A stretch of DNA of 61,976 bases. It comes from a virus. Taxonomy: Duplodnaviria; Caudoviricetes. Below, one piece after another: positions 3,129 through 12,905 of this stretch. Made by a program: the position numbers and the translations under genes. The number at the start of each line of letters is the position of its first letter. Positions within the stretch are counted from its first letter, which is position 1. Below the pieces are notes generated by a model, which did no database searches, was not told where the DNA came from, and worked only from the letters and a program-made list of their open reading frames with translations. The stretch lies in IMG/VR virus record IMGVR_UViG_3300043410_000417, positions 1 through 61,976 of that record. One strand, given 5' to 3'.

Positions 3129-3198
3129 AATGCACCTTCGCTTTCTTGGTTAGTAATGATAAATATAGCTGATAAACAACTACATCTTTGGGTTAAAA

Positions 3199-3876: not shown

Positions 3877-3877
3877 T

Positions 3878-3955
3878 TGGAGCGGGTAGGGAGATTCGAA
3901 CTCCTCACTTGAGGTTTGGAAGACCGCCGTGCTAGCCGTTAAACACTATACCCGC
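3878..3955 (-). tRNA. tRNA-Gly(TCC)
   Basis: Cloverleaf, loop CTTCCAA, encoded CCA. Confidence 0.9.
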
Positions 3956-3960
3956 ATAAT

Positions 3961-4036
3961 TGGTGCTGAATGTCGGAATCGAACTGACGACCTTCGGATT
4001 ACTAAACCGATGCTCTACCAACTGAGCTAATTCAGC
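3961..4036 (-). tRNA. tRNA-Thr(AGT)
   Basis: Cloverleaf, loop TTAGTAA, G1-C72/C2-G71, encoded CCA. Confidence 0.85.
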
Positions 4037-4044
4037 ATTATTCT

Positions 4045-4308
4045 TTAATCAAATACCGCTACAATATTATCTTCGTCGACGATGGCGCGTTGTGCATCAC
4101 CGACTTTAACAACAGAGGCTTTGTTCCATTCTAGAAGAATGACATCGCCAACTTTAACAGTAGTCACTTCTGGACCAACTGCAAGGACTGTTGCTCGCTT
4201 AGATTCACGAACAGAGTTGGCTCCTTCAAGGATAATACCAGACTCAGTGGTCAATTCACTTTTGTTCTCAGCAACAAGAACCTTTTTATGTAGAGGTTTT
4301 ACGTTCAT
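4045..4308 (-). CDS. groES: co-chaperonin GroES (gp31-like)
   Basis: VKPLHKKVLV...TESGIIL...VLAVGP...VKVGD pattern. Confidence 0.9.
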   Translation of the reverse strand: MNVKPLHKKVLVAENKSELTTESGIILEGANSVRESKRATVLAVGPEVTTVKVGDVILLEWNKASVVKVGDAQRAIVDEDNIVAVFD

Positions 4309-4323
4309 AATTTCTCATTTAAT

Positions 4324-4398
4324 TGGTGGAGGATAACGGAATCGAACCGTTGACTCAAGCGTGCAAGGCTAGTGTTTTCCCAATTAGACTAATCCCCC
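4324..4398 (-). tRNA. tRNA-Ala(TGC)
   Basis: Cloverleaf, loop CTTGCAC, G3-U70, CCA. Confidence 0.9.
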
Positions 4399-4583
4399 AT
4401 TGGTTTTTTGCGTTTGATACCATGATCATCGTAGTACCAATCGCGCTCATTTGGATCTGGAGAGTTTACCACGAATTCTTCTTTCGGTAAATCTCTCTGA
4501 AAGATCGCATCCCATCGTTTAGAATATTCGTCATGCGCTACACTTAATGGGCGTGGCGCTGAACCTTTACCACCGTCACTCAT
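4389..4583 (-). CDS. small hypothetical protein (MSDGGKGSAPRP...)
   Basis: Start ATG overlaps stop of upstream ORF; N-terminus resembles a common small phage protein (from memory). Confidence 0.6.
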   Translation of the reverse strand: MSDGGKGSAPRPLSVAHDEYSKRWDAIFQRDLPKEEFVVNSPDPNERDWYYDDHGIKRKKPMGD

Positions 4584-4699
4584 CGACCTTGCCCTCGATA
4601 CTTCTTGTGACCTTTGCGGCATTTATTCTGAGTGCTAGTCTTGCTACCGTTCTGGCAAGTCTTCTTGTGCACTCTCTGATGTTTTGCATTACCTTTCAT
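4580..4699 (-). CDS. small basic protein ending KKYRGQGR
   Basis: 39-aa ORF below track cutoff, GAGGA RBS, MKGNAKHQRVHKKTCQNGSKTSTQNKCRKGHKKYRGQGR. Confidence 0.65.
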   Translation of the reverse strand: MKGNAKHQRVHKKTCQNGSKTSTQNKCRKGHKKYRGQGR

Positions 4700-4715
4700 G
4701 GTATCCTCTAAAATT

Positions 4716-4792
4716 TGGCTCCCCGACGTGGGCTCGAACCACGGACATCTTGATTAACAGTCAAGCGCAACTACCAACTGTGCTATCGAGGA
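4716..4792 (-). tRNA. tRNA-Asn(GTT)
   Basis: Cloverleaf, loop CTGTTAA, CCA. Confidence 0.9.
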
Positions 4793-4801
4793 ATATATTA
4801 A

Positions 4802-4885
4802 TGGTGCCCCCAGCGAGACTCGAACTCGCACGCCTCTCGGCACTGGCTTCTAAGACCAGCGTGTCTGCCATTCCACCACAAGGGC
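4802..4885 (-). tRNA. tRNA-Leu(TAG)
   Basis: Cloverleaf with long variable arm, loop CTTAGAA, CCA. Confidence 0.9.
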
Positions 4886-4907
4886 ATATTTCTACTTATA
4901 ATAACTT

Positions 4908-4984
<77 letters not shown>

Positions 4985-4996
4985 ATAATTCTTCTC

Positions 4997-5071
4997 TGGT
5001 GGTGATAGGTGGTATCGATCCACCCTCGTCGGCTTATGAAACCGCTACGCATCCATCTACGTCATATCACC
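4997..5071 (-). tRNA. tRNA with CAT anticodon (Met or Ile2)
   Basis: Loop TTCATAA, atypical T-loop ATCGATA, CCA. Confidence 0.7.
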
Positions 5072-5077
5072 ATAATT

Positions 5078-5152
5078 TGGTGCCCCAGTACGGAATTGAA
5101 CCGCATTTTGATGCTTACAAGGCAACTGTAATAGCCATTATACTACAAGGGC
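5078..5152 (-). tRNA. tRNA-Thr(TGT)
   Basis: Cloverleaf, loop CTTGTAA, CCA. Confidence 0.88.
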
Positions 5153-5158
5153 AATAAT

Positions 5159-5218
5159 CAACAGGCTTCGCTTTCTTTTCATAGACAGTGAAATTTTATT
5201 GTTGCTGAAAGAAGCCTA
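5159..5218 (-). ncRNA. CAGCAA-handle RNA 1 (isolated Asp GUC anticodon arm)
   Basis: AGGCUUC-UUUCAGCAA...UUUCA-CUGUCUA-UGAAA...GAAGCCU-GUUG. Confidence 0.65.
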
Positions 5219-5222
5219 AAAC

Positions 5223-5299
5223 TGGTTGCGGAGTGCTGGAATCGAACCAACTACCTTCAGCTTATGAGACTGACGGGATAACCATTTCCCTAACCCGCA
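5223..5299 (-). tRNA. tRNA-Met(CAT), initiator-like acceptor stem
   Basis: Loop CTCATAA; 5' TGCGGG and 3' CCGCAACCA; lacks the three G-C anticodon pairs of canonical fMet tRNA. Confidence 0.75.
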
Positions 5300-5306
5300 A
5301 TAACCT

Positions 5307-5672
5307 TTACAACTTGGACCACTCAACGATTGTGTCGCGAGTAATCTTTCGTTGTTCACCGCGACCATACTTTGTCACCATAGCGACAATGCGTGGCACG
5401 ATATACAATCTAAACATCACGTCATCATTACGCTTCTTTTCTACTGAAGTGTAAGACTTTCCTGCAAGATACGCTCTTGCTAGTTCAGTGGCGCGTGATT
5501 CGTTTCGTACGTTCCAACGGCGATGAGCAACTAGGCTGTCCAACTTGACAATCAGGTTTGCGTCAGTACCTTTGGTGTACTTGATTTGACCCTTCAGCTT
5601 ACGTTCTTCATGTTTGATAACTTTAGGCTCAAGAGCGAGATGTTTTGCTTTAATTTTTAATTCGATACACAT
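5307..5672 (-). CDS. basic hypothetical protein (MCIELKIKAKHLA...)
   Basis: Internal ATG with AAGGA RBS within the listed 153-aa ORF. Confidence 0.75.
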   Translation of the reverse strand: MCIELKIKAKHLALEPKVIKHEERKLKGQIKYTKGTDANLIVKLDSLVAHRRWNVRNESRATELARAYLAGKSYTSVEKKRNDDVMFRLYIVPRIVAMVTKYGRGEQRKITRDTIVEWSKL

Positions 5673-5783
5673 TTTAGTTTCCTTTGTTTTTAAGATTGAT
5701 TGACATGATATAGAAAACAAAAGAACCTTACGGTGGTCGAATCTATGCTGAGAATTTCTCCATAGCATTTCCTTTCATAAATT

Positions 5784-5859
5784 TGGTGCTTCTAGCGGGA
5801 TTTGAACCCACCTTCATCCGTTTTAGAGACGGTCGCATAAGCCACTCTGCCATAGAAGC
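5784..5859 (-). tRNA. amber suppressor tRNA (CTA)
   Basis: Cloverleaf GCTTCTA/TAGAAGC, anticodon arm ACCGT-CTCTAAA-ACGGA, T-arm GTGGG-TTCAAAT-CCCGC, CCA. Confidence 0.85.
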
Positions 5860-5962
5860 ATAACTGTATTTAGTCATCAAAATTCGTGAAAGTTCCGATA
5901 GCACCCATCGTCACTTACAACCGTTGAGAAGCCATGCATCAAAACAAGACTTCTGTTTGCTC

Positions 5963-6037
5963 TGGCGGTTCCAGGGGGTAACGATCCCCCTCTTTAGCAG
6001 TGACAGTGCTACGTGCGTCCATGAACACTTTGAAACC
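5963..6037 (-). tRNA. tRNA-Asp(GTC)
   Basis: Loop CTGTCAC, G73, atypical T-loop, CCA. Confidence 0.8.
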
Positions 6038-6045
6038 AAAAATAT

Positions 6046-6262
6046 GTGGCATTACGAACTTTAGCCGTACTTCTATCGCGAGTACCGAAAAGAGCAACTG
6101 GCGTTACCCCGAACATGTTACGCGCCCAACCCTATGTTGGGATTGTCATCACTGCGAGGCGTGACGATTACTTTTGCCGACAGGACTCTCACCTGTAATA
6201 TGCTAGATACGTTAAATCTAACCTTCCTAATGAAACGTGCTTTCTTCACACGAATGACGACA
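6046..6262 (-). ncRNA. candidate multi-stem ncRNA between tRNAs
   Basis: Ends pair imperfectly; several internal hairpins including T-loop-like CAGG-UGAGAGU-CCUG. Confidence 0.5.
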
Positions 6263-6266
6263 AACT

Positions 6267-6351
6267 TGGTGGAGACGGTGTGAGTCGAACACACAGTGCC
6301 AGAGGCGGCGGATTTACAGTCCACTGGGGTTACCAATTTTCCTACATCTCC
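6267..6351 (-). tRNA. tRNA-Tyr(GTA)
   Basis: Long variable arm, loop CTGTAAA, CCA. Confidence 0.9.
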
Positions 6352-6353
6352 AT

Positions 6354-6554
6354 AAACTTTATACAACTGACAACTTGCTAGTCACGCCACCTTCATTCAT
6401 GACCATTTTACCGATGATATAAAGCAGCTGCTCGGTTAGTGGTACGTAGTGCTAGTCGATACTTGTCTTCTCGGTTAATTAGACCAGACTCATAGGAATT
6501 TCGAGGCTCCTACTTTCTCGACATCTACAGCAAATTATCATGTGTATAAAGTTT
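6354..6554 (-). ncRNA. candidate ~200-nt ncRNA closed by a long terminal stem
   Basis: AAACTTTATACA / TGTATAAAGTTT inverted repeat extended by TGACAACTTGCT / AGCAAATTATCA. Confidence 0.5.
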
Positions 6555-6628
6555 GGTACTCCGTATGGGAATCGAACCCATCTTACCAACGTGAAAGGCT
6601 GGTGTCCTAGCCGATAGACGAACGGAGC
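6554..6628 (-). tRNA. tRNA-Glu(TTC)
   Basis: Cloverleaf, loop CTTTCAC, CCA. Confidence 0.9.
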
Positions 6629-6648
6629 ATTTTCAACACAATAACATA

Positions 6649-6677
6649 AGTATACATCAACTTCTTGAAGAAGTCAA
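6649..6677 (-). promoter_or_regulatory. internal sigma70-type promoter in tRNA array
   Basis: TTGACT-17 nt-TATACT. Confidence 0.7.
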
Positions 6678-6685
6678 CAACTTTC

Positions 6686-6772
6686 TGGAATCTGGGGTCG
6701 GATTTAAACCGACGGTGCCCTTTCGGATACGGATTTGCAATCCGTCGCATTCGATCACTCTGCCACCCAGAC
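6686..6772 (-). tRNA. tRNA-Cys(GCA) with long variable arm
   Basis: Loop TTGCAAA, U73, extra arm ATCCGAAAGGGCAC, CCA. Confidence 0.8.
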
Positions 6773-6781
6773 ATAAAACTT

Positions 6782-6857
6782 TGGCGTCGCTGGAGGGATT
6801 CGAACCCCCATCGTACGGTGTAGAAGACCGTTGCCTTATCCATTAGACCACAGCGAC
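6782..6857 (-). tRNA. tRNA-Arg(TCT)
   Basis: Cloverleaf, loop CTTCTAC, CCA. Confidence 0.9.
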
Positions 6858-6862
6858 AAAAC

Positions 6863-6939
6863 TGGTGCGGATGGTGAGACTCGAACTCACAAAATTTGGC
6901 TTCTAAGACCAACACGTATACCAATTCCATCACATCCGC
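6863..6939 (-). tRNA. tRNA-Leu(TAG), short variable loop
   Basis: Loop CTTAGAA, no long extra arm, CCA. Confidence 0.85.
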
Positions 6940-6946
6940 ATTATCT

Positions 6947-7031
6947 TGGTGCGAGTGGCGGGACTCGAACCCGCATACCCGAAGGCGGCAGATTTTAAGT
7001 CTGCTGTGAATACCAATTCCACCACACTCGC
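6947..7031 (-). tRNA. tRNA-Leu(TAA)
   Basis: Long variable arm, loop CTTAAAA, CCA. Confidence 0.92.
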
Positions 7032-7036
7032 ATATT

Positions 7037-7113
7037 TGGTGCCCCCAGCGGGACTCGAACCCGCAGAATCCTGCTTTTGAGACAGGCACGTATACCAATT
7101 CCATCACAGGGGC
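7037..7113 (-). tRNA. tRNA-Leu(CAA), short variable loop
   Basis: Loop CTCAAAA, no long extra arm, CCA. Confidence 0.85.
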
Positions 7114-7119
7114 ATAATT

Positions 7120-7194
7120 TGGTGGGTCAGGAGAGAATCGAACTCTCACTCGACCGATTATGAGTCGGCTGCTTTTCCATTAAGCTACTGACCC
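7120..7194 (-). tRNA. tRNA with CAT anticodon, probably Ile2
   Basis: Loop CTCATAA, GGG start as in Ile tRNAs, CCA. Confidence 0.8.
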
Positions 7195-7272
7195 GTTATT
7201 TGGCTCGGGTCTCTCCTCGACTGTCACGCATGTCGCTAACGTTTGCGGTAGGGAGCGACCCTACATTACAAC

Positions 7273-7363
7273 TGGCAGTGGGTAAGGGACTCGAACCCTT
7301 GGACCAACTTACGTCAGTCTACAGTTTAGCAAACTGCTGCAATCGCCGCTCTGCCAACCCACT
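7273..7363 (-). tRNA. tRNA-Ser(GCT)
   Basis: Long variable arm, loop TTGCTAA, G73, CCA. Confidence 0.88.
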
Positions 7364-7366
7364 ATA

Positions 7367-7951
7367 TTAGTCTATACTACCGTTTCCATGCTTGAAACCC
7401 ACGGTACCACCCTGTTCTTGAATTCTCTTCAAGACGTCCTCAAACAAGATGGGTCTGAAGTCTGTTTGCTCGACGCAGACAGAGAAGTACCGTGGATCAA
7501 TCGCATCTAACTTCTTACCTCCAAAGCCACTCATCATAACTCTGTTGCTATGTAAGTGTCCGTGGATGTTGCAGCCGAAACGATATAACTGATCAGGATG
7601 AACAGGGATATGAGTCAAGATCAATCCATTCATCACGTGACTACCTCGAATGTCTCTGAAGAAAGGAGTATATTCTTCCATTCTAAAGATGTCGTGGTTA
7701 CCCTTGATCAAAACCTTATCACCGTTCAAACGATGTAAAATCTTCAAAGCCTTTCTGTTAATGACTACGTCACCTAAGTGGTAGACCTTATCAGTAGGCT
7801 TGACGGTTTCGTTCCACATCTTGACCATAGCCTCGTCCATTTCTTCAGGAGAGTCCCATGGTCTCAATTTTGTAACACCGTCTTCACGCATAAATCGGCA
7901 AACACCCATGTGTCCGAAGTGCGTGTCACTTGTTAAAAACACACTTGGCAT
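7367..7951 (-). CDS. calcineurin-like metallophosphoesterase
   Basis: SDTHFGH, HLGD, KGNHD, TH, HGHLH motifs; GGAGG RBS before MPSVF. Confidence 0.92.
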   Translation of the reverse strand: MPSVFLTSDTHFGHMGVCRFMREDGVTKLRPWDSPEEMDEAMVKMWNETVKPTDKVYHLGDVVINRKALKILHRLNGDKVLIKGNHDIFRMEEYTPFFRDIRGSHVMNGLILTHIPVHPDQLYRFGCNIHGHLHSNRVMMSGFGGKKLDAIDPRYFSVCVEQTDFRPILFEDVLKRIQEQGGTVGFKHGNGSID

Positions 7952-7975
7952 AATTGCCTCCATTCTATAGTTAAA

Positions 7976-8072
7976 CAACAGGATGTCTTGTTGCGCCCTT
8001 TGCGCACTCTGCCGAGTTTTGGTGGCAAAATAAGGAATCGAACCTTAAAGTTTGTTTGCTGCAAACATCCTA
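7976..8072 (-). ncRNA. CAGCAA-handle RNA 2 (circularly permuted tRNA body)
   Basis: AGGAUGU-UUGCAGCAA, T-arm UAAGG-UUCGAUU-CCUUA, UUUUGCC-ACCA, linker, GGCAGAG, D-like GCGC-AAAGG-GCGC, ACAUCCU-GUUG. Confidence 0.7.
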
Positions 8073-8076
8073 GAAC

Positions 8077-8166
8077 TGGCGGAAGTAGTAGGATTTGAAC
8101 CCACGAACCCTTTCGGGTTGCCTGTTTTCTAGACAGGTGCCATAAACCAGACTCGACCATACTTCC
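8077..8166 (-). tRNA. tRNA-Ser(AGA)
   Basis: Long variable arm, arm CCTGT-CTAGAAA-ACAGG, G73, CCA. Confidence 0.88.
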
Positions 8167-8171
8167 ATATA

Positions 8172-8285
8172 CAACAGGTTACTTCTTTCGTTTGCTCTAC
8201 CAGATGAGCTAATCTCGCGATGCGCGAAATGTTGGGATCGAACCAACTACATAACGTTGAGTTATGATTTGCTGTAAGTAACCTA
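8172..8285 (-). ncRNA. CAGCAA-handle RNA 3 (circularly permuted tRNA body)
   Basis: AGGUUAC-UUACAGCAA, T-arm GUUGG-UUCGAUC-CCAAC, capped acceptor AUUUCGCG-CAU-CGCGAGAU, D-arm GCUC-AUCUGGUA-GAGC, GUAACCU-GUUG. Confidence 0.75.
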
Positions 8286-8289
8286 AAAC

Positions 8290-8375
8290 TGGTGGATGTG
8301 GTAGGGATCGAACCTACCTGACCCGAAGGTCCATGGGGTTACAGCCCACTAGAACGCCATTGTTCCATCACATCC
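8290..8375 (-). tRNA. tRNA-Tyr(GTA), atypical long D-stem
   Basis: Loop CTGTAAC, long variable arm, D-stem TGGAAC/GTTCTA, CCA. Confidence 0.75.
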
Positions 8376-8381
8376 ATATCT

Positions 8382-8473
8382 TGGCGGAGAGCAGAGGAGT
8401 CGAACCCCATCCCATTTCTGAGAACCGTGTTTTCAAGGCACGTCGCAGGACCAACCCCGCTGCATTACTCTCC
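8382..8473 (-). tRNA. tRNA-Ser(TGA), possible 8/4 fold
   Basis: Loop CTTGAAA, long variable arm, acceptor GGAGAGTA/TGCTCTCC, CCA. Confidence 0.8.
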
Positions 8474-8483
8474 ATTATTCTTT

Positions 8484-8559
8484 TGGTGCTCACGTCGAGC
8501 CTCGAACTCGATCCTCTGCGTTACTAGGGCAGCATACCACCAACTAATACTTCGCGAGC
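8484..8559 (-). tRNA. tRNA-Thr(AGT), second divergent copy
   Basis: Arm CTGCC-CTAGTAA-CGCAG, G1-C72/C2-G71, CCA. Confidence 0.8.
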
Positions 8560-8563
8560 AATT

Positions 8564-8639
8564 TGGTACCCCTGGAGAGAATCGAACTCCCGTCTCAGCG
8601 TTCGTAGCACCGTATTCTTATCCGTTGAACTACAGGGGC
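8564..8639 (-). tRNA. tRNA-Arg(ACG)
   Basis: Cloverleaf, loop CTACGAA, CCA. Confidence 0.9.
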
Positions 8640-8645
8640 ATTATA

Positions 8646-8748
8646 CAACAGGTTAGTTGTTTTGCATGGGGAATTGAACCCCAACGGTTTTCGTAGAAAG
8701 AAAATTGCCGACCATCGGCGTTGCGTTGTTTTTGCTGTAACTAACCTA
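8646..8748 (-). ncRNA. CAGCAA-handle RNA 4 (D, anticodon and T arms without a real acceptor end)
   Basis: AGGUUAG-UUACAGCAA, GCCG-AUGGU-CGGC, UUUUC-UUUCUAC-GAAAA, UGGGG-UUCAAUU-CCCCA, CUAACCU-GUUG. Confidence 0.7.
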
Positions 8749-8752
8749 AAAC

Positions 8753-8826
8753 TGGTGCGGGTGGAGAGAATCGAACTCTCAACTAAACGTTGGCAACGTC
8801 TGATTTTACCATTAAACTACACACGC
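8753..8826 (-). tRNA. tRNA-Gly(GCC)
   Basis: Cloverleaf, loop TTGCCAA, CCA. Confidence 0.88.
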
Positions 8827-8831
8827 ATATT

Positions 8832-8906
8832 TGGTGGATGGTACAAGGTTCGAACTTGTGACCTTCTCCATGTCACGGAGATATTCTACCGCTGAAATAA
8901 CCATCC
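8832..8906 (-). tRNA. tRNA-Val(GAC)
   Basis: Cloverleaf, loop GTGACAT, CCA. Confidence 0.88.
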
Positions 8907-8914
8907 ATTAAACT

Positions 8915-8988
8915 TGGTACCTCGTGACAGAATCGAACTGCCGTAACCGCCGTGTAAAGACGGAGTTCTACCATTGAACTAACGAGGC
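8915..8988 (-). tRNA. tRNA-Val(TAC)
   Basis: Cloverleaf, loop TTTACAC, CCA. Confidence 0.9.
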
Positions 8989-8996
8989 ATAAAACT

Positions 8997-9125
8997 TGGT
9001 GGAGTCGGCGGGATTCGAACCACGCACAAGAACTTTTACAGAGTTAGAGCTATAGTGTTGCTGGAACAATTCTTCAGACAGAATTGGTTTTTTGCTATGC
9101 TATGCTACCATTACATCACGACTCC
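8997..9125 (-). ncRNA. tRNA-like RNA (GTA loop) with an internal permuted CAGCAA handle (RNA 5)
   Basis: Acceptor GGAGUCG/CGACUCC-ACCA, T-loop UUCGAAU, AACU-CUGUAAA-AGUU, plus ~50-nt insert containing CAAUUCU-GUCUGA-AGAAUUG-UUCCAGCAA. Confidence 0.7.
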
Positions 9126-9128
9126 AAA

Positions 9129-9254
9129 TTTTAATGAAACATACTCTCGACGTCAGGGGTCTTTTCATCGCGCTGGCTAGGCATGCTTCGCTACCGTGCT
9201 CAGATTAGCGGTCTGAACGTCACAGTAACCAATGATGAATATGCTTCATTAAAA
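9129..9254 (-). ncRNA. candidate ~125-nt ncRNA closed by a long terminal stem
   Basis: TTTTAATGAAACATACTC / GAATATGCTTCATTAAAA terminal inverted repeat with GC-richer interior. Confidence 0.5.
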
Positions 9255-9301
9255 TGACTTACTACTTGTCTCATTATACGCCATAAGTCAAGGCGAGGCT
9301 C

Positions 9302-9377
9302 TGGCACCGTAGACGGGAATCAAACCCGCCGCATTCCGATAGACAGTCGGTTATCACCATCAGGTGGACTCTACGGT
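9302..9377 (-). tRNA. tRNA-Asp(GTC)
   Basis: Loop CTGTCTA, G73, atypical D-arm, CCA. Confidence 0.78.
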
Positions 9378-9383
9378 ATAAAT

Positions 9384-9462
9384 TGGCTCCGTGTATGAGA
9401 ATCGAACTCATCTAACCATTGATTAACAGTCAAGCCCCTGCACCTTGCTTGGGTTTCACGGA
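9384..9462 (-). tRNA. tRNA-Asn(GTT)
   Basis: Loop CTGTTAA, atypical D-arm, CCA. Confidence 0.8.
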
Positions 9463-9564
9463 ATAAAATTCTGAGTCGCATTTGATTACACGGTTGATAC
9501 GCCCTTCCGTGATGTTACGGTTACACACTTACCTGCAGGACGCATGTGCAACTATCTTACATTA

Positions 9565-9639
9565 TGGTGGAAGCCGAGGAAATCGAATCCTTCTAGACAG
9601 CGACCTTGCAAGGGTCACCCGTAGCCCACTACTGCCCCC
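9565..9639 (-). tRNA. tRNA-Ala(TGC), reduced D-arm
   Basis: Loop CTTGCAA, G3-U70, very small D-loop, CCA. Confidence 0.7.
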
Positions 9640-9645
9640 ATTATA

Positions 9646-9713
9646 CAACAGAATCGTTTTTTGCGTTTTTCAATTACAAGTTGAATGCATTTTTGTTTGC
9701 TGAACCGATTCTA
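9646..9713 (-). ncRNA. CAGCAA-handle RNA 6 (isolated Thr UGU anticodon arm)
   Basis: AGAAUCG-GUUCAGCAA...UUCAA-CUUGUAA-UUGAA...CGAUUCU-GUUG. Confidence 0.65.
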
Positions 9714-9719
9714 AAACTT

Positions 9720-9795
9720 TGGTCTCCCTAGAGGGATTTGAACCCCCACCACATGACCCCAAATCACGGACGCTCCCAGATTACGCCATAGAGAG
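9720..9795 (-). tRNA. tRNA-Pro(TGG)
   Basis: Cloverleaf, loop TTTGGGG, CCA. Confidence 0.87.
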
Positions 9796-9802
9796 ATAAA
9801 AG

Positions 9803-9876
9803 TGGCATCCCGCTAGGGACTCGAACCCCAACCAACGGTTTTGGAGACCGCTATGCTGCCATTACACCAGCGAGAT
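9803..9876 (-). tRNA. tRNA-Trp(CCA)
   Basis: Cloverleaf, loop CTCCAAA, G73, CCA. Confidence 0.9.
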
Positions 9877-9883
9877 ATAAACT

Positions 9884-9958
9884 TGGTATTGCGTACGGGG
9901 ATCGAACCCGCCTACATAGGTTGAAAGCCTATTGACCTCACCAAAAGTCGAACGCAAT
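9884..9958 (-). tRNA. tRNA-Glu(TTC)
   Basis: Cloverleaf, loop CTTTCAA, CCA. Confidence 0.87.
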
Positions 9959-9964
9959 ATAAAA

Positions 9965-10032
9965 CAACAGGAAGGTTTTTGTCGCTAGACAACCAAAAAG
10001 TTTAGCTAATTGAATTTGCTGAACCCTTCCTA
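9965..10032 (-). ncRNA. CAGCAA-handle RNA 7
   Basis: AGGAAGG-GUUCAGCAA...CCUUCCU-GUUG; interior hairpin ambiguous. Confidence 0.6.
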
Positions 10033-10036
10033 AAAA

Positions 10037-10111
10037 TGGTTCCCACGAAAGGAATCGAACCTTAGATCTATCGGTTATCAGCCGATTGCTTGACCATTAA
10101 GCTACATGGGA
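10037..10111 (-). tRNA. tRNA-Ile(GAT)
   Basis: Cloverleaf, loop CTGATAA, CCA. Confidence 0.88.
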
Positions 10112-10119
10112 ATAAATTC

Positions 10120-10195
10120 TGGTGCCGAAGACTGGAGTCGAACCAGTGACACATGGATTTTCAATCCACTGCTCTACCACCTGAGCTACATCGGC
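10120..10195 (-). tRNA. tRNA-Phe(GAA)
   Basis: Cloverleaf, loop TTGAAAA, CCA. Confidence 0.93.
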
Positions 10196-10208
10196 ATACA
10201 ATTTTCTT

Positions 10209-10283
10209 TGGGGAGTCATACGAGAATCGAACTCGTGATAACGGAATCACAACCCGTGGTTTTGCCACTAAACTAATGACTCC
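10209..10283 (-). tRNA. tRNA-His(GTG)
   Basis: Loop TTGTGAT, G-1/C73 pair, CCA. Confidence 0.88.
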
Positions 10284-10294
10284 CCAAAGAAAAC

Positions 10295-10369
10295 TGGTAG
10301 GGGCACAGAGAATCGAACTCTGATTAACTGGTTAAAAGCCAGCTACTTTAGCCGTTAAGTTATACCCCC
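10295..10369 (-). tRNA. tRNA-Lys(TTT)
   Basis: Cloverleaf, loop CTTTTAA, CCA. Confidence 0.9.
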
Positions 10370-10372
10370 ATA

Positions 10373-10448
10373 TGGTCCACCCTCTGGGATTCGAACCCAG
10401 ACCTCATAGATTAAGAGTCTAGAATGCTGCCAATAACACCTAGAGTGG
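10373..10448 (-). tRNA. tRNA-Lys(CTT)
   Basis: Cloverleaf, loop CTCTTAA, CCA. Confidence 0.87.
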
Positions 10449-10558
10449 TTGTACGTATTATTTTGATTTTACGTGCCAACTCAGACCATACGGGGGATCT
10501 GAGCGACACTAACGTTTAGCACGTTTCATATCGTCCTCTCTTTTCAAAAATGTTGTTA

Positions 10559-10667
10559 CCAAACAAAAACACATTACGCCATGCGAGCCCATCTGCATGC
10601 TTAGGCTTTTTGTCTTCTCGTTCCAGCTGGCTCTTACGACAGTGGCGTCACGCAATGTGTTTATGTT
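10559..10667 (-). ncRNA. candidate ~110-nt ncRNA closed by a long terminal stem
   Basis: CCAAACAAAAACACATTACG / CGCAATGTGTTTATGTTTGG inverted repeat directly after tRNA-Gln. Confidence 0.45.
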
Positions 10668-10741
10668 TGGCACCCGAGGTAGGAATCGAACCTACAATAA
10701 CAGAGTCAAAGTCTGGTGTGTTACCACTACACTACTCGGGA
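10668..10741 (-). tRNA. tRNA-Gln(TTG)
   Basis: Cloverleaf, loop CTTTGAC, U1-A72, G73, CCA; first tRNA of the array. Confidence 0.9.
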
Positions 10742-10800
10742 ACAAAAGAGTCACTAGCTACCAGCGAACCTTCGCTAGTGACTCATTAAAACTGGTACGC

Positions 10801-10815
10801 AGATTGTTAAAGATC
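10801..10815 (-). promoter_or_regulatory. boxA-like Nus antitermination site
   Basis: GATCTTTAACAATCT versus rrn boxA GCTCTTTAACAA, between promoters and first tRNA. Confidence 0.6.
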
Positions 10816-10854
10816 TGAAGTTGACAGCTAAAGAGCCAATCAACCGAGTCGTTA

Positions 10855-10883
10855 ATTATACATCAATTAAGATTGTAAGTCAA
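10855..10883 (-). promoter_or_regulatory. sigma70-type promoter of tRNA array (proximal)
   Basis: TTGACT-17 nt-TATAAT. Confidence 0.8.
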
Positions 10884-10933
10884 CAACTTTCTTTTCGCAT
10901 CTCAGGAATCGCTTCCCGATCAACTAAGACATA

Positions 10934-10962
10934 ATTCTACATCATGTCAGCGTTACTGTCAA
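10934..10962 (-). promoter_or_regulatory. sigma70-type promoter of tRNA array (middle)
   Basis: TTGACA-17 nt-TAGAAT. Confidence 0.78.
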
Positions 10963-11030
10963 CAACTTTCTGAAAAGACCCTCAACTTTGTAAGGGATTC
11001 TCAGAACCGTCTTCAGTAACAGAGCATTGA

Positions 11031-11058
11031 ATTCTACCACATTCGCGATAAAAGTCAA
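11031..11058 (-). promoter_or_regulatory. sigma70-type promoter of tRNA array (distal)
   Basis: TTGACT-16 nt-TAGAAT. Confidence 0.65.
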
Positions 11059-11064
11059 CACCCT

Positions 11065-11104
11065 AAAACAAAAAACCCTCGAGATTTTCATCTTCGAGGG
11101 TTTT
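11065..11104 (-). terminator. intrinsic terminator of putative attenuator
   Basis: AAAACCCUCGA(A)GAU-GAAA-AUCUCGAGGGUUUU followed by UUGUUUU. Confidence 0.85.
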
Positions 11105-11127
11105 GGTAAGTAAACTAAAGTGTTACT

Positions 11128-11250
11128 TCACTTGCCAAAACCCCCAGTATCCTCAATCGCGTATCCACGGACAAATGATGGGCGTGTGCTTGTCCAGCCG
11201 TTATTCAACGGTAGCTGCTTATGCATTCTGGAACAAACTAAAGATTTCAT
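11128..11250 (-). CDS. 40-aa leader peptide containing all 20 amino acids
   Basis: MKSLVCSRMHKQLPLNNGWTSTRPSFVRGYAIEDTGGFGK*; ATG 7 nt after a -10 box (leaderless); 3' end overlaps antiterminator strand. Confidence 0.75.
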   Translation of the reverse strand: MKSLVCSRMHKQLPLNNGWTSTRPSFVRGYAIEDTGGFGK

Positions 11251-11257
11251 AGATTGA

Positions 11258-11286
11258 ATTCTACAGTAACTTTCGGGTTTCGTCAA
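11258..11286 (-). promoter_or_regulatory. sigma70-type promoter of leader peptide
   Basis: TTGACG-17 nt-TAGAAT. Confidence 0.8.
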
Positions 11287-11397
11287 GCGATTCCCCTACA
11301 ACACGTAGGGTCTTTACACTAGACTCTAGATTTATTTAGGACAAATTTTAGCTCAAAATGAACTTTTTGTCAAGTATTTTCAGAAATTTTTTTGGAG

Positions 11398-11405
11398 TAT
11401 AAATA
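11398..11405 (+). promoter_or_regulatory. T4-type late promoter
   Basis: TATAAATA upstream of AGGAG RBS and ORF at 11423. Confidence 0.7.
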
Positions 11406-11422
11406 CATGGATAGGAGAGCGA

Positions 11423-11995
11423 ATGTACATCTTAGAAATTGTAAACGTCAACACCAAGGAGAACAAGTTCTTCGAGGACACTGACACCTTTGAACGCTAC
11501 AAGGACTTCTACGCAGACTACATCGAGCAATTCGATAACAGATTCGCAAAGGACATCTACAAACAACAGCTGAAGATGCAAGTGAAACGCGATACTCTGG
11601 TAGATGGAACCTTTCGCAAGACCATCAGAAAATCCTTCTTCAAGAACCAGAAGGCTGCAGAACAGTACATCAAAGACTTCGTATCAGAAGGACTTCGTTG
11701 GGACTGGGATGAAACGTTACAAGAGCGAGTCTGGAAACCAGAAGCCAGAGAAGAAGCGAACCTTGCAAGAACCCGTTGGATCATTGAGAACGGTATCATC
11801 TTCGAGTACAACATCCTAGACTCTCAGGGCAACTTCATCAAGTGTATCAATTCCTGCGCTAGAAAAATCTGTATGGTCTTTGGAGAGTGTGATCCAAAGA
11901 ACACCTGTGAGAATCTGTGGCAACAACAGGGATCATTCGTTAAACAAGATGTATCCCTACATCACATCTCAGTATCATCTATAAAGAGGAAGTAA
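11423..11995 (+). CDS. Cys-cluster hypothetical protein, paralog 2
   Basis: AGGAG RBS; CINSCARKICMVFGECDPKNTC...HHISV. Confidence 0.85.
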   Translation: MYILEIVNVNTKENKFFEDTDTFERYKDFYADYIEQFDNRFAKDIYKQQLKMQVKRDTLVDGTFRKTIRKSFFKNQKAAEQYIKDFVSEGLRWDWDETLQERVWKPEAREEANLARTRWIIENGIIFEYNILDSQGNFIKCINSCARKICMVFGECDPKNTCENLWQQQGSFVKQDVSLHHISVSSIKRK

Positions 11996-12576
11996 TGTAC
12001 TTATTCGAAAACATCACAATCAATCGTAGAGAAGATAGATTCTTCGACGAGGTTTCTACATTCCCAGAGGATCTCAGCGAGAAGTTTGTAGAGTTCAGAA
12101 AAGAAGTAGAACTCAAGTGTGAGCGTCACATCTACAATAAACGCATCACAATCACTCAAGAGAAGCTAATGCTTGACGATGGCTCATGGGCACTTAGAAT
12201 GCGCGTTGGCCACTTCAAGTCTATCGAAGGTGTAGAAGAATTCTGGAATACTTTCTTTGACGAGTACAGCCGAGTAGATAACGAACTACATGCGGTCACC
12301 AAGTTCAGAAAAGAATGGTCTAAGGATAACGACTCTCGTTCTCAGTCTAACGTTGTAGACGTCAACGGTAAGTTCGTTAAGACTCTAAACTCTTGTACAC
12401 AGGGTATCTGTTCTAGAAACAGAGACAGCAACGATGGTGGTTGCTGGAAGGATGCTCAGTGCTGGGAACAGCACACAGAAAAGACGTACGAGTCTTTCCA
12501 CCATATCCCAGTCTCGAAGATTATTTCAAAATCCAAATTTTCCCACAAGGTCGGAGAAATTAAGATCGAAAAGTAA
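11995..12576 (+). CDS. Cys-cluster hypothetical protein, paralog 3
   Basis: TAATG coupling to previous gene; NSCTQGIC...GGCWKDAQC...HHIPV. Confidence 0.85.
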   Translation: MYLFENITINRREDRFFDEVSTFPEDLSEKFVEFRKEVELKCERHIYNKRITITQEKLMLDDGSWALRMRVGHFKSIEGVEEFWNTFFDEYSRVDNELHAVTKFRKEWSKDNDSRSQSNVVDVNGKFVKTLNSCTQGICSRNRDSNDGGCWKDAQCWEQHTEKTYESFHHIPVSKIISKSKFSHKVGEIKIEK

Positions 12577-12604
12577 AAAAACCGCCTTTCGGCGGTTTTG
12601 TTTT
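12575..12604. terminator. bidirectional terminator
   Basis: AAAAAAACCGCC-TTTC-GGCGGTTTTGTTTT between convergent genes. Confidence 0.85.
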
Positions 12605-12905
12605 ATACAGAGAAGGAACTTCCACACCCACATGTGGTCTGGGCATTCGGGTTGTTGATCACAAACTGATCACCCATTAGATCTTCCTTATAGTCGAGAG
12701 TTGCTTCCTGCATGTACTGGATGCTCATTGAGTCAACGATCACGTTCTCGAAAGTGAAGTCGTCATCGGCTAAGTCATCGAACGCGAACGAGTAAGAGAA
12801 GCCAGCACAACCACCACCTTGAACAGAGATTCGTAGATACGTCTCTTCGTTCTCTTTCAATAGAGCATCAATCTTATTCTTAGCATTTTCTGTTACTGTA
12901 ATCAT
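12603..12905 (-). CDS. erpA: A-type Fe-S carrier ErpA-like
   Basis: GGGCAGFSY and NPNAQTTCGCGSSFSV. Confidence 0.9.
   Translation of the reverse strand: MITVTENAKNKIDALLKENEETYLRISVQGGGCAGFSYSFAFDDLADDDFTFENVIVDSMSIQYMQEATLDYKEDLMGDQFVINNPNAQTTCGCGSSFSV

What the first reader, a model, noticed from the sequence alone, without database searches (positions are those of the whole stretch)
11065..11286. Pan-codon leader peptide attenuator at the head of the tRNA array
Seen: a TTGACG-17-TAGAAT promoter places +1 at or next to an ATG (leaderless, no Shine-Dalgarno). The 40-codon ORF (11250-11128) contains all 20 amino acids by codon 34 and has 35 different codons in its first 37 (4 different Ser, all 4 Gly, 3 Leu, 3 Arg, both Asn, both Lys). 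Uniform random drawing of 40 from 61 codons gives about 29-30 distinct. The last codons and stop (GGGGGUUUUGGCAAGUGAA) can pair over about 19 nt, with one mismatch, with UUUACUUACCAAAACCCUC, which includes the 5' arm of a strong terminator. Established: this is the geometry of trp/his attenuators, which normally sense one amino acid. Inference: a ribosome reaching the stop masks the antiterminator and transcription ends, while a stall at almost any codon (for example after host anticodon nucleases or toxins deplete a tRNA) lets transcription run into the 40-tRNA array. Caveats: three further promoters lie between the terminator and the first tRNA, so this would be a boost rather than the only switch, and stalls at the last few codons may still mask the antiterminator.
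Basis: partly seen in the sequence, partly recalled or inferred. Interest (0 to 1): 0.92.

Follow-up and report, generated by a model that had tools for sequence, protein, structure and literature searches.

The report
All-twenty-amino-acid leader before phage tRNAs
A tiny gene at the head of a phage's tRNA gene array is kept by selection so that its roughly 40 codons spell all 20 amino acids, and its stop codon sits in a hairpin that competes with a terminator, so it looks like a general sensor of translation speed that could gate tRNA production.

Summary
On the minus strand a TTGACG-17-TAGAAT promoter is followed 7 nt later by a 40-codon ORF (11250-11128) with all 20 amino acids and 35 distinct codons. 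Its stop lies in a hairpin that abuts a strong terminator.

In one sequence this is only mildly unusual (P about 0.007; a second complete 40-codon ORF occurs by chance inside tRNA genes). The comparative evidence is decisive:
- Of 75 distinct homologous peptides (37-47 aa) from uncultured T4-like phage contigs, 65 hold all 20 amino acids and 10 lack exactly one.
- Single-copy residues (Cys, His, Gln, Tyr, Val) change position without being lost.
- A site-independent simulation on the tree expects 8-11 of 39 complete tips against 36 observed (0 of 2100 runs reach that).
- tRNA-Gln follows first in 45 of 46 loci.

The hairpin in its extended form and the terminator are near-isoenergetic. A modelled ribosome at the stop gives terminator probability 0.98-0.99 in 39 of 39 homologs; a ribosome stalled upstream gives a mean of 0.23.

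Caveats: the overlap is only 3-5 bp and has no covariation, a promoter follows the terminator in at least 30 of 33 variants, and codon diversity beyond amino-acid completeness is weak. Attenuation is plausible but untested.

The parts
11345..11373 (-). Upstream early-type promoter P1 (TTGACA-17-TAAAAT). It is conserved in homologs and its transcripts would run into the mini-ORF unit.
   Evidence: 11 of 12 matches. Conserved in the upstream flanks printed.
11294..11310 (-). Short stem-loop (CCCTAC-5 nt-GTAGGG) between P1 and P2, of the PeSL stem-loop type. No clear U-tract follows it.
   Evidence: Read. The equivalent hairpin is seen in the homolog flanks. The PeSL definition comes from passages of PMC4122927.
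11258..11286 (-). Promoter P2 (TTGACG-17-TAGAAT). It would place the transcript start at or next to the ATG.
   Evidence: 10 of 12 matches. In all 40 DNA variants a -10-like hexamer ends 6-10 nt before the ATG, as seen in the flanks printed. The transcript start is inferred.
11128..11250 (-). Leaderless-type mini-ORF: 40 codons plus TGA, all 20 amino acids, 35 distinct codons.
   Evidence: The frame is conserved across homologs of 37-47 codons. Completeness is 65 of 75 distinct peptides. The tree simulation reaches the observed value in 0 of 2100 runs. dN/dS is 0.37-0.50.
11198..11211 (-). Hairpin H1 inside the ORF (CCGTT-GAAT-AACGG, codons 14-18). It is a possible pause or structural hairpin.
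   Evidence: Present in the fold. In one search, 2 of its 4 pairs show compensatory changes (G-C in 26 sequences, A-U in 10, both through synonymous codon changes) and 92% of cells are paired.
11096..11145 (-). Hairpin H2. The 5' arm (11145-11127) is the last five codons, the stop and one more base. The 3' arm is 11114-11096. The lowest 5 pairs (G-run 11145-11141 with CCCTC 11100-11096) overlap the terminator's 5' arm and make the candidate antiterminator.
   Evidence: In the 13-pair core, 8 pairs are invariant and 2 show compensatory changes. In the 5-pair extension, 3 pairs are invariant, 1 varies on one side only (G.U or A-U) and none is compensatory.
11065..11100 (-). Intrinsic terminator: stem-loop 11100-11076 (10 pairs and one bulge), then T6 G T4. 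It is preceded by an A4 tract that belongs to the H2 3' arm.
   Evidence: -14.1 kcal/mol. In one search, 5 of its 10 pairs show compensatory changes and 99.2% of cells are paired.
11031..11058 (-). Promoter P3, a few bases after the terminator tail. Terminator plus P3 forms a PeSL-type cassette.
   Evidence: At least one promoter-like site lies between the terminator and tRNA-Gln in 30 of 33 variants.
10855..10962 (-). Two further promoter-like sites, P4 (10962-10934) and P5 (10883-10855), ahead of the first tRNA.
   Evidence: 11 of 12 matches each.
3878..10741 (-). tRNA array. tRNA-Gln(ttg) at 10741-10668 comes first, then Lys, Lys, His, Phe, Ile and so on. There are 35-39 genes covering all 20 amino acids, plus a tRNA with a CUA anticodon.

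Best explanation
This is a translated, leaderless-type leader ORF whose defining, selected property is that about 40 codons contain every one of the 20 amino acids. It is coupled to a hairpin/terminator switch at the head of a phage tRNA array that itself covers all 20 amino acids.

Proposed mechanism, of the trp-attenuator type
- A ribosome loads on the 5'-terminal AUG of the P2 transcript and follows the polymerase.
- If it decodes all codons quickly, it reaches the last codons and the stop. It then holds the 5' arm of hairpin H2 (including the G-run) inside the ribosome, the terminator stem forms, and the transcript ends.
- If it is delayed at almost any codon, the G-run and 5' arm pair with the 3' arm and with the first 3-5 bases of the terminator stem. 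Delay could come from a missing charged tRNA, for example after a host anticodon nuclease or starvation.
- This weakens termination and lets P1/P2 transcription run on into the tRNA genes, adding to the array's own promoters.
- The tRNAs made would speed decoding of the leader, which closes a negative feedback loop.

Status of each step
- Shown: the ORF, its conservation, selection for completeness, linkage to the array, conserved helices, and the energetic competition.
- Inferred: the transcript start, translation, ribosome-dependent switching, and any effect on tRNA levels.
For: 1. Completeness is selected.
- 37 of 40 distinct DNA variants are complete, and so are 29 of 36 further peptides from protein databases. 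Together that is 65 of 75 distinct peptides of 37-47 aa; the other 10 lack exactly one residue type (Cys 6, His, Gln, Arg, Val 1 each).
- The composition null gives 0.3-1.8%.
- Site-independent evolution on the same tree, with the same per-column number of changes and residue pools, gives 7.7-11.1 complete tips of 39 against 36 observed. 0 of 2100 runs reach 36. At half that rate 5 of 1000 runs reach it.
- Sole copies move. Tyr occurs exactly once in 75 of 75 peptides, in 5 alignment columns. Cys occurs once in 68, in 8 columns. His occurs once in 67, in 5 columns.

2. It is translated in this frame.
- The ATG lies 6-10 nt after a -10 hexamer in all variants.
- Lengths of 37-47 codons all stay in frame.
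- dN/dS is 0.37-0.50.
- The antisense frames are stop-free in only 32 and 18 of 40 variants.

3. It is linked to the array.
- tRNA-Gln is the first gene downstream, on the same strand, in 26 of 26 viral loci and 19 of 20 metagenome loci. It lies 132-596 nt after the stop.
- The arrays cover all 20 amino acids in 5 of the 6 loci judged to hold a whole array.

4. The switch geometry is conserved.
- The stop lies in H2's 5' arm or loop in all variants, 23-33 nt before the terminator.
- H1, the H2 core and the terminator all show compensatory changes.
- RNAalifold's consensus takes the extended H2.
- With the upstream ORF masked, the antiterminator form is more stable than the terminator form in 39 of 39 variants, by a mean of 1.46 kcal/mol. 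The naked RNA is near-isoenergetic.
- Modelled terminator probability is 0.98-0.99 in 39 of 39 with a ribosome at the stop. It averages 0.23 (above 0.5 in 4 of 39) with a ribosome stalled just upstream of the G-run.
- The codon before GGT always ends in G, although it encodes Gly, Lys or Glu (GGG 23, AAG 14, GAG 3). This keeps the G-run.

5. Control. The five other strong terminators on this strand of the window keep a terminator probability of 0.85-1.00 with 70 nt of upstream context. This one drops to 0.19.
Against: - The antiterminator shares only 3-5 bp with a 10-pair terminator. These pairs are invariant or vary on one side only, so covariation does not support them. Branch migration over so few pairs could be fast.
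- In the full-length naked fold that includes the U-tract, the short hairpin and the terminator coexist.
- A promoter-like site follows the terminator in at least 30 of 33 variants, and three do so in the window. The array therefore does not depend on readthrough.
- Terminator plus early promoter is the generic PeSL cassette that flanks small early ORFs in T4-like phages.
- Known attenuators use runs of regulatory codons. Here most amino acids appear once or twice, which should give low sensitivity to mild starvation.
- The last 9-12 codons are a blind zone in the model. The invariant sole Asp always lies in it, and in 20 of 75 peptides so does the sole Tyr.
- With a ribosome in the N-terminal half, the modelled outcome varies between homologs from 0.00 to 0.95.
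- The peptide has a conserved core, so a peptide-level function is not excluded.
- There is no expression evidence. RNA runs were available only as contigs.
Confidence: 0.5

Rival explanations
1. It is an ordinary small early gene in a PeSL cassette. P2, the mini-ORF and the terminator form a self-contained unit whose roughly 40-aa peptide acts in trans on some host or phage target. Hairpin H2 merely stabilises the 3' end, and its position next to the tRNA array is a matter of inherited gene order.
For: - Terminator followed at once by an early promoter is the described PeSL arrangement around small ORFs in T4-like phages (passages of PMC4122927).
- The peptide has a conserved core (LP.., GW, R, F, D.GFGK) with invariant columns, and dN/dS is below 1.
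- The tRNA array has its own promoters.
Against: - It gives no reason why all 20 amino acids should be kept while their positions move.
- Much of the 'conserved peptide' coincides with RNA helices or with nucleotide-level conservation that includes synonymous sites (H1, the G-run/H2 arm, the CACGCCCA stretch).
- The linkage to tRNA-Gln holds in 45 of 46 loci, even though PeSL regions are described as shuffling-prone.
- This terminator alone is competed by its upstream hairpin.
- No Pfam or PHROG family matches.
Confidence: 0.2
2. It is a decoding sensor with a different output. The complete ORF does sample all aminoacyl-tRNAs, but a stalled or finished ribosome acts through something other than terminator readthrough. 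Candidates are insulation or occlusion of promoter P3, stability or processing of the short RNA, or a stall-triggered pathway.
For: - Selection for completeness and linkage to the array call for a translation-level function.
- The weak points of the antiterminator (3-5 bp overlap, no covariation) and the promoter placed a few bases after the terminator leave room for another read-out.
Against: - No specific alternative element was found.
- The conserved placement of the stop inside a hairpin that competes with the terminator is most simply read as attenuation.
Confidence: 0.15
3. It is a structured small RNA, about 170-185 nt from P2 to the terminator, whose open reading frame is incidental or secondary.
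For: - The fold is more stable than shuffles (z = -3.9).
- There are three conserved helices.
- Some stretches are conserved at the nucleotide level, including synonymous sites.
Against: - All length changes inside the ORF keep the frame, while the hairpin loop varies by non-multiples of 3 (the stop-to-terminator distance takes the values 23, 24, 26, 27, 28, 29, 30, 32 and 33 nt).
- The other sense frames are closed and the antisense frames are not conserved open.
- Amino-acid completeness can only be seen through translation.
- No Rfam family matches. The only hit is a 17.6-bit match on the terminator, far below that family's threshold.
Confidence: 0.05

Closest known systems
Ribosome-mediated leader-peptide attenuators of amino-acid operons (trp, his, leu, thr, ilv, pheA of enterobacteria). 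Described from established knowledge; abstracts of PMC1183508 and PMC3082878 were seen only in a search listing.
   Same: - A short leader ORF is followed by an intrinsic terminator.
- The stop region forms the 5' arm of a hairpin that competes with the terminator.
- A ribosome at the stop favours termination, and a stalled ribosome favours the competing hairpin.
- The product of the regulated genes speeds decoding of the leader.
   Different: - No run of one regulatory codon is present. Instead every amino acid appears at least once.
- The regulated genes would be tRNAs, not biosynthetic enzymes.
- The start is of the leaderless type.
- The antiterminator overlaps the terminator by only 3-5 bp.
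- Promoters lie between the terminator and the regulated genes.
- The element is phage-encoded.
PeSL (promoter-early stem-loop) cassettes of T4-like phages. Passages of Comeau et al. 2014 (PMC4122927) were read; Arbiol et al. 2010 (PMC2839356) was seen only in a listing.
   Same: - A composite terminator stem-loop with A/T-rich flanks is followed directly by a sigma-70-type early promoter.
- Such cassettes flank small ORFs in T4-like genomes.
- The terminator plus P3, and the stem-loop before P2, fit this description.
   Different: - PeSLs are described as generic regulatory and recombination cassettes.
- In what I read of that paper, nothing describes a stop-covering hairpin that competes with the stem-loop, an ORF complete for 20 amino acids, or a fixed link to a tRNA array.
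Leaderless polycysteine short ORFs acting as cysteine-responsive attenuators in mycobacteria (bioRxiv 10.1101/834739; only the search listing and the start of the abstract were seen).
   Same: A leaderless short ORF at the 5' end of a transcript is used as a translation-dependent sensor controlling downstream genes.
   Different: That system senses one amino acid through consecutive Cys codons and controls operonic protein genes in a bacterium. This one is complete for 20 amino acids, phage-encoded, and lies before tRNA genes.
T-box leaders of Gram-positive bacteria (recalled from general knowledge; not examined here).
   Same: A leader RNA links tRNA charging status to a terminator/antiterminator choice.
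   Different: T-boxes bind one specific uncharged tRNA directly, without translation. They regulate aminoacyl-tRNA synthetase and amino-acid genes. No T-box match was found in the Rfam scan of this region.

Membership tests
Leader-peptide (ribosome-mediated) transcription attenuator | A short translated leader ORF at the 5' end of the transcript | tested here: inconclusive
   The ORF is conserved in frame over 37-47 codons and the ATG lies 6-10 nt after a -10 hexamer. dN/dS is 0.37-0.50 and completeness is selected. Translation itself was not observed; RNA runs were available only as contigs.
Leader-peptide (ribosome-mediated) transcription attenuator | Regulatory codons: a run or enrichment of codons for the sensed amino acid(s) | tested here: not met
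   No run is present. Most amino acids occur once or twice. Tyr occurs exactly once in 75 of 75 peptides, Cys once in 68 and His once in 67.
Leader-peptide (ribosome-mediated) transcription attenuator | An intrinsic terminator downstream of the leader ORF | tested here: met
   The stem 11100-11076 is followed by T6. In one search, 5 of its 10 pairs are compensatory and 99.2% of cells are paired. It is present in 39 of the 39 variants that have enough downstream sequence.
Leader-peptide (ribosome-mediated) transcription attenuator | An antiterminator that excludes the terminator, with a 5' arm that a ribosome at the stop codon covers | tested here: inconclusive
   - The stop lies inside H2 in all variants.
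- The extended H2 is more stable than the terminator form in 39 of 39 variants when the ORF is masked.
- Terminator probability is 0.98-0.99 with a ribosome at the stop against a mean of 0.23 with a ribosome upstream.
- However, the overlap is only 3-5 bp and none of those pairs is compensatory.
Leader-peptide (ribosome-mediated) transcription attenuator | The regulated genes depend on readthrough, with no promoter between terminator and genes | tested here: not met
   At least one promoter-like site lies between the terminator and tRNA-Gln in 30 of 33 variants, and three do so in the window.
Leader-peptide (ribosome-mediated) transcription attenuator | Readthrough responds to supply of charged tRNA | not testable with these tools
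   This needs reporter assays, in vitro transcription-translation or Term-seq experiments.
PeSL cassette of T4-like phages | A stem-loop terminator directly followed by an early sigma-70-type promoter, in a T4-like genome | tested here: met
   The terminator tail ends at 11065 and the P3 -35 hexamer starts at 11058. The window's DNA polymerase is 54-55% identical to gp43 of cyanomyoviruses. The definition comes from passages of PMC4122927.
Any Rfam RNA family | A covariance-model match at the family's gathering score | tested here: not met
   In the scan of 3000-12500, the only match inside 11065-11286 is a 17.6-bit hit on the terminator, against a threshold of 88 bits.
Any known phage or general protein family | A profile or sequence match for the peptide | tested here: not met
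   Four representative peptides gave 0 PHROG and 0 Pfam families at E up to 1. tblastn found no match in 50,697 GenBank phage records at E up to 1. Database relatives are unnamed or called 'hypothetical protein'.

The most novel reading that the evidence does not exclude
The mini-ORF is a 'pangram' leader: a minimal message that must be decoded with all 20 kinds of aminoacyl-tRNA. A phage would use it as a universal sensor of translation capacity. A delay at almost any codon, such as after host anticodon nucleases or other tRNA-depleting defences, flips a hairpin/terminator switch and boosts transcription of the phage's own complete tRNA set. If so, it would be the first leader-peptide attenuator that senses all amino acids and the first to control tRNA genes.
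Probability: 0.4. Interest if true: 0.95.

Novelty: new variant of a known kind. Interest (0 to 1): 0.87.

Why it matters
**What is new.** Leader-peptide attenuators are a textbook mechanism, but every known one senses one to three amino acids and controls biosynthetic genes. A leader that selection keeps complete for all 20 amino acids, at the head of a phage tRNA array that also covers all 20, would be a general sensor of decoding capacity. I found no description of such an element in seven full-text searches.

**Why it bears on phage biology.** If confirmed, it would show that phages regulate, rather than merely carry, their tRNA sets. It would also tie tRNA arrays mechanistically to the arms race over tRNA-targeting defences.

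**Why it is testable.** The element is short and uses sigma-70-type promoters and an intrinsic terminator, so it can be tested directly in a laboratory strain. It could also serve as a compact reporter of translation stress.

**What stands regardless.** Even if the output is not attenuation, selection for amino-acid completeness in a 40-codon ORF is a new kind of sequence constraint that needs explaining.

Tried and rejected
**1. Pan-codon reading.** Given each peptide, the number of distinct codons exceeds expectation only slightly (+2.7 against phage usage, +1.3 against uniform synonymous choice). P ranges from 0.005 in the window to 0.59. I therefore describe the element as complete for amino acids, not for codons. 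All 40 leader codons can be read by the window's tRNAs under simple wobble rules, but so can 52 of 61 sense codons and 91% of the phage's codon usage. This is weak.

**2. Antisense gene.** Long stop-free antisense stretches exist, but the two candidate frames are stop-free in only 32 and 18 of 40 variants and have no conserved start. Rejected.

**3. Long-range pairing of an ORF segment with the terminator's 3' arm.** RNAalifold proposed GCCC with GGGU. Reading, this does not hold in the variants that carry GCTC or GTTC. Not pursued.

**4. Known families and cultured phages.** DNA search of GenBank phages matched only the tRNA-Gln gene. tblastn with the peptide found nothing. PHROGs and Pfam gave nothing. 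Rfam gave nothing relevant.

**5. Expression.** The runs found were all stored as contigs. When laid on the window, most matches were to tRNA-Gln. One 241-nt contig of an RNA library at depth 2.2 spans 10929-11170, across the terminator. DNA carry-over cannot be excluded, and contigs show no transcript ends or strand. This is no evidence either way. I draw no habitat conclusion from the small shares.

**6. Match between amino acids missing from the leader and tRNAs missing from the array.** Not tested. Of the three incomplete leaders, L026 lacks Gln although its array starts with tRNA-Gln.

**7. Protein-database rows dropped before the count.** Of 62 proteins:
- 4 were over 100 aa. Two of these read the TGA stop as Trp and two are unrelated long proteins.
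- 16 began after profile position 2, that is, gene calls starting at an internal Met. Several of these are nevertheless complete.
- 2 had aberrant C-termini.
- 2 duplicated the DNA set, and 2 were identical to another row after trimming.

The N-termini of over-extended gene calls were set to the Met aligned with profile position 1. This is my rule, not an observation.

**8. Tool outcomes.**
- One search came too early, and the result was collected.
I repeated it on six variants and as a three-condition summary on 39.
- Supplementary files of papers were not consulted.
Full report
**What is there.** The window is a 61,976-base fragment of an uncultured virus record. Its DNA polymerase is 54-55% identical to gp43 of cyanomyoviruses, so it is a distant T4-like myovirus. 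On the minus strand the finding reads as follows:
- Promoter P2: TTGACG at 11286-11281, a 17-nt spacer, TAGAAT at 11263-11258.
- After 7 nt, an ATG at 11250, then a 40-codon ORF ending in TGA at 11130-11128.
- A hairpin, H2, whose 5' arm (11145-11127) is the last codons plus the stop and whose 3' arm is 11114-11096.
- A terminator stem-loop at 11100-11076, followed by T6 G T4.

The last five bases of the hairpin's 3' arm are the first five of the terminator stem. Another promoter, P1, lies upstream at 11373-11345. Three more (11058-11031, 10962-10934, 10883-10855) lie between the terminator and the first tRNA gene, tRNA-Gln at 10741-10668. The array holds 35 tRNA genes by ARAGORN defaults and 39 at a relaxed threshold. 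It covers all 20 amino acids.

- From the phage's own amino-acid frequencies, a 40-residue peptide is complete with probability 0.0068 (0.0032 at 37 residues, 0.018 at 45).
- 71 of 12,554 40-residue windows of the phage's real proteins are complete, as are 4 of 184 ATG ORFs of 30-60 codons in the window.
- A second 40-codon ORF with all 20 amino acids lies inside the tRNA-Phe and tRNA-His genes (10097-10219) and is surely accidental.
- Thirty-five or more distinct codons has P = 0.007 with uniform codons and 0.00016 with phage usage. Once the peptide is given, P is 0.005 or 0.05.

**Homologs.**
- A neighbouring protein gave one related contig.
- Exact DNA patterns from the terminator and from the ORF's end gave 4 and 14 loci.
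- A peptide profile gave 32 viral loci and 27 metagenome loci.
- These hold 40 distinct DNA variants of the ORF, coding for 39 distinct peptides.
- Two protein collections gave 62 proteins. Of these, 36 are further distinct peptides with a definable N-terminus. The dropped rows are listed under Tried and rejected.
- No homolog exists in 50,697 GenBank phage records. No PHROG, Pfam or Rfam family matches. Where sources name these proteins at all, they call them hypothetical.

**The key result is that completeness is selected.**
- 37 of 40 DNA variants encode all 20 amino acids in 37-45 codons. The other three each lack one (Gln, Cys, Val).
- 29 of the 36 additional peptides are complete. Five lack Cys, one lacks Arg and one lacks His.
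- Together, 65 of 75 distinct peptides of 37-47 residues are complete, and none lacks more than one amino acid.

The searches were anchored on a conserved core motif or on the last six codons, not on composition.

Shared descent does not explain this. I simulated site-independent evolution on the tree of the 40 variants. Each run started from a real complete sequence. Each alignment column received its own parsimony-minimum number of changes, and replacements were drawn only from residues seen in that column. The simulation gives 7.7-11.1 complete tips of 39, against 36 observed, and 0 of 2100 runs reach 36. With half that number of changes, 5 of 1000 runs reach it. With a quarter, 72 of 1000 do.

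About 20% of residues are the only copy of their amino acid, so unconstrained drift should often break completeness. Instead, the sole copies move:
- Tyr occurs exactly once in all 75 peptides, in 5 alignment columns.
- Cys occurs once in 68 peptides, in 8 columns (some of these columns are alignment shifts).
- His occurs once in 67 peptides, in 5 columns.
- Where the Gln of the K-Q-L motif becomes His, the earlier His is gone and a Gln appears before the Phe.

**Coding strand and translation.**
- In every variant the ATG follows a -10-like hexamer by 6-10 nt, with no Shine-Dalgarno sequence that I could see. The RNA would therefore be leaderless or nearly so; this is inferred.
- ORF lengths vary from 37 to 47 codons but always stay in frame. 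The non-coding stretch from the stop to the terminator varies by non-multiples of three, between 23 and 33 nt.
- dN/dS is 0.37-0.50.
- The other two sense frames are closed, and the antisense frames are stop-free in only 32 and 18 of 40 variants.

**Linkage to the tRNA array.**
- tRNA-Gln(ttg) is the first gene downstream on the same strand in 26 of 26 viral loci and 19 of 20 metagenome loci. The one exception has only 700 nt of flank.
- It lies 132-596 nt after the stop and is usually followed by Lys, Lys, His, Phe and Ile.
- No tRNA lies upstream in any locus examined.
- In the six loci that I judged, from where the tRNA genes stop within the locus, to hold a whole array, five arrays cover all 20 amino acids by ARAGORN defaults.

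**RNA structure.**
- The transcript folds better than shuffles (z = -3.9).
- On the 39-sequence alignment, the terminator has 5 of 10 pairs with compensatory changes and 99.2% of cells paired.
- The in-ORF hairpin H1 has 2 of 4 compensatory pairs, made through synonymous Pro and Asn codon changes.
- The H2 core has 13 pairs, of which 8 are invariant and 2 compensatory.
- At the position that is a C.A mismatch in the window, other groups have U-A or A-U (read).
- The five pairs specific to the antiterminator comprise 3 invariant pairs, 1 that is G.U or A-U, and 1 that is paired in 25 of 39 sequences. None is compensatory, so covariation neither supports nor opposes them.
- The codon before GGT always ends in G, although it encodes Gly, Lys or Glu. 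This preserves the G-run.

**Does the geometry work as a switch?**
- For RNA ending at the terminator stem, with the ORF upstream of the G-run left out, the extended hairpin is more stable than the terminator form in 39 of 39 variants, by 0.8-3.5 kcal/mol (mean 1.46). Naked full-length RNA is near-isoenergetic, with a mean difference of -0.17.
- I masked a ribosome footprint from 15 nt before to 11 nt after the first base of the A-site codon. With the stop in the A site, terminator probability is 0.98-0.99 in 39 of 39 variants. With a ribosome stalled just upstream of the G-run it averages 0.23, and exceeds 0.5 in 4 of 39. Five codons further upstream it averages 0.30. For naked RNA it averages 0.54.
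- As a control, the five other strong terminators on this strand keep a probability of 0.85-1.00 with 70 nt of upstream context, while this one drops to 0.19.

These are equilibrium calculations, not kinetics.

**Weak points of the attenuator reading.**
- The overlap is only 3-5 bp.
- With the U-tract included, the minimum-energy fold shows the short hairpin and the terminator side by side.
- With a ribosome in the N-terminal half, the modelled outcome differs between homologs.
- The last 9-12 codons are a blind zone that always contains the sole Asp, and in 20 of 75 peptides the sole Tyr.
- Single codons should be insensitive to mild starvation, though not to near-total loss of a tRNA.

**Context that argues for an ordinary reading.**
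- A terminator followed at once by an early promoter is the PeSL cassette described for T4-like phages (passages of PMC4122927). The small stem-loop before P2 is of the same kind.
- At least 30 of 33 variants have a promoter-like site between the terminator and tRNA-Gln. Readthrough could therefore only add to the array's own transcription.
- The peptide keeps a conserved core. Much of that core coincides with RNA helices or with nucleotide conservation that includes synonymous sites.

**Verdict.**
- The strongest and newest fact is that a short, leaderless-type ORF at the head of a complete phage tRNA array is kept complete for the 20 amino acids by selection. I put this at about 0.9.
- Only the decoding ribosome can 'see' that property. 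Together with the conserved placement of the stop in a hairpin that competes with a terminator, this makes a translation-speed attenuator the best explanation (0.5).
- The rivals are a trans-acting small early protein (0.2), a decoding sensor with another output (0.15) and a small RNA (0.05).
- Seven full-text searches found no description of a leader peptide that samples all amino acids or of leader-peptide control of tRNA genes. I saw only listings and abstract starts, apart from the PeSL paper, and supplements were closed.
- I class the element as a new variant of a known kind of system.

Noticed in passing
window 5784-5859 (-); also loci L005 and L007: The array contains a tRNA with a CUA anticodon, which ARAGORN labels 'Pyl'. 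It looks like an amber-suppressor tRNA. In the listings I read, the mini-ORFs end in TAA or TGA, and I noticed none ending in TAG. Whether these phages read TAG as a sense codon was not examined.
   Followed up: no
window 10750-10790 (-), just upstream of tRNA-Gln: A long, near-perfect inverted repeat (an 11-bp stem around about 15 nt) directly precedes tRNA-Gln. It is conserved in several homologs. It could be a processing hairpin or another structured RNA.
   Followed up: no
window 12603-13583 (-): The phage carries iron-sulphur cluster assembly genes: two Fe-S_biosyn (IscA/HesB-type) proteins and a NifU_N (IscU-type) scaffold protein. A 2OG-Fe(II) oxygenase follows at 13817-14464.
   Followed up: partly
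window 11423-12576 (+): Two tandem genes of similar size (190 and 193 aa) are transcribed divergently from the mini-ORF. They gave no Pfam family above threshold. A homolog of the first (75% identical) is the upstream neighbour in a related 170-kb contig.
   Followed up: partly
window 8168-8275, 8386-8473, 9000-9125, 9305-9378, 5000-5071 (-): Rfam finds tRNA-like matches inside the array that ARAGORN defaults miss. There is a 126-nt tRNA match at 9000-9125, which may carry an insertion, and a tRNA match at 5000-5071. Two matches to the tRNA-Sec model and one to the Y RNA-like YrlA model (30 bits against a threshold of 69) are below threshold. Relaxed ARAGORN adds four genes, one of them with a 4-base anticodon call.
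   Followed up: partly
window 10097-10219 (-): A 40-codon ATG ORF with all 20 amino acids overlaps the tRNA-Phe and tRNA-His genes. It is a useful reminder that completeness in a single sequence can arise by chance.
   Followed up: yes
window 7367-7978 (-) and 5307-5768 (-): Protein-sized ORFs sit in gaps of the tRNA array. The first has a sub-threshold match to a calcineurin-like phosphoesterase domain, and the second has no match.
   Followed up: partly
proteins P0050 and P0052: Two database proteins continue past the mini-ORF's end, with Trp where the window has its TGA stop. These gene calls were apparently made with a TGA=Trp code, so I treated them as artefacts of gene calling rather than real fusions.
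   Followed up: partly
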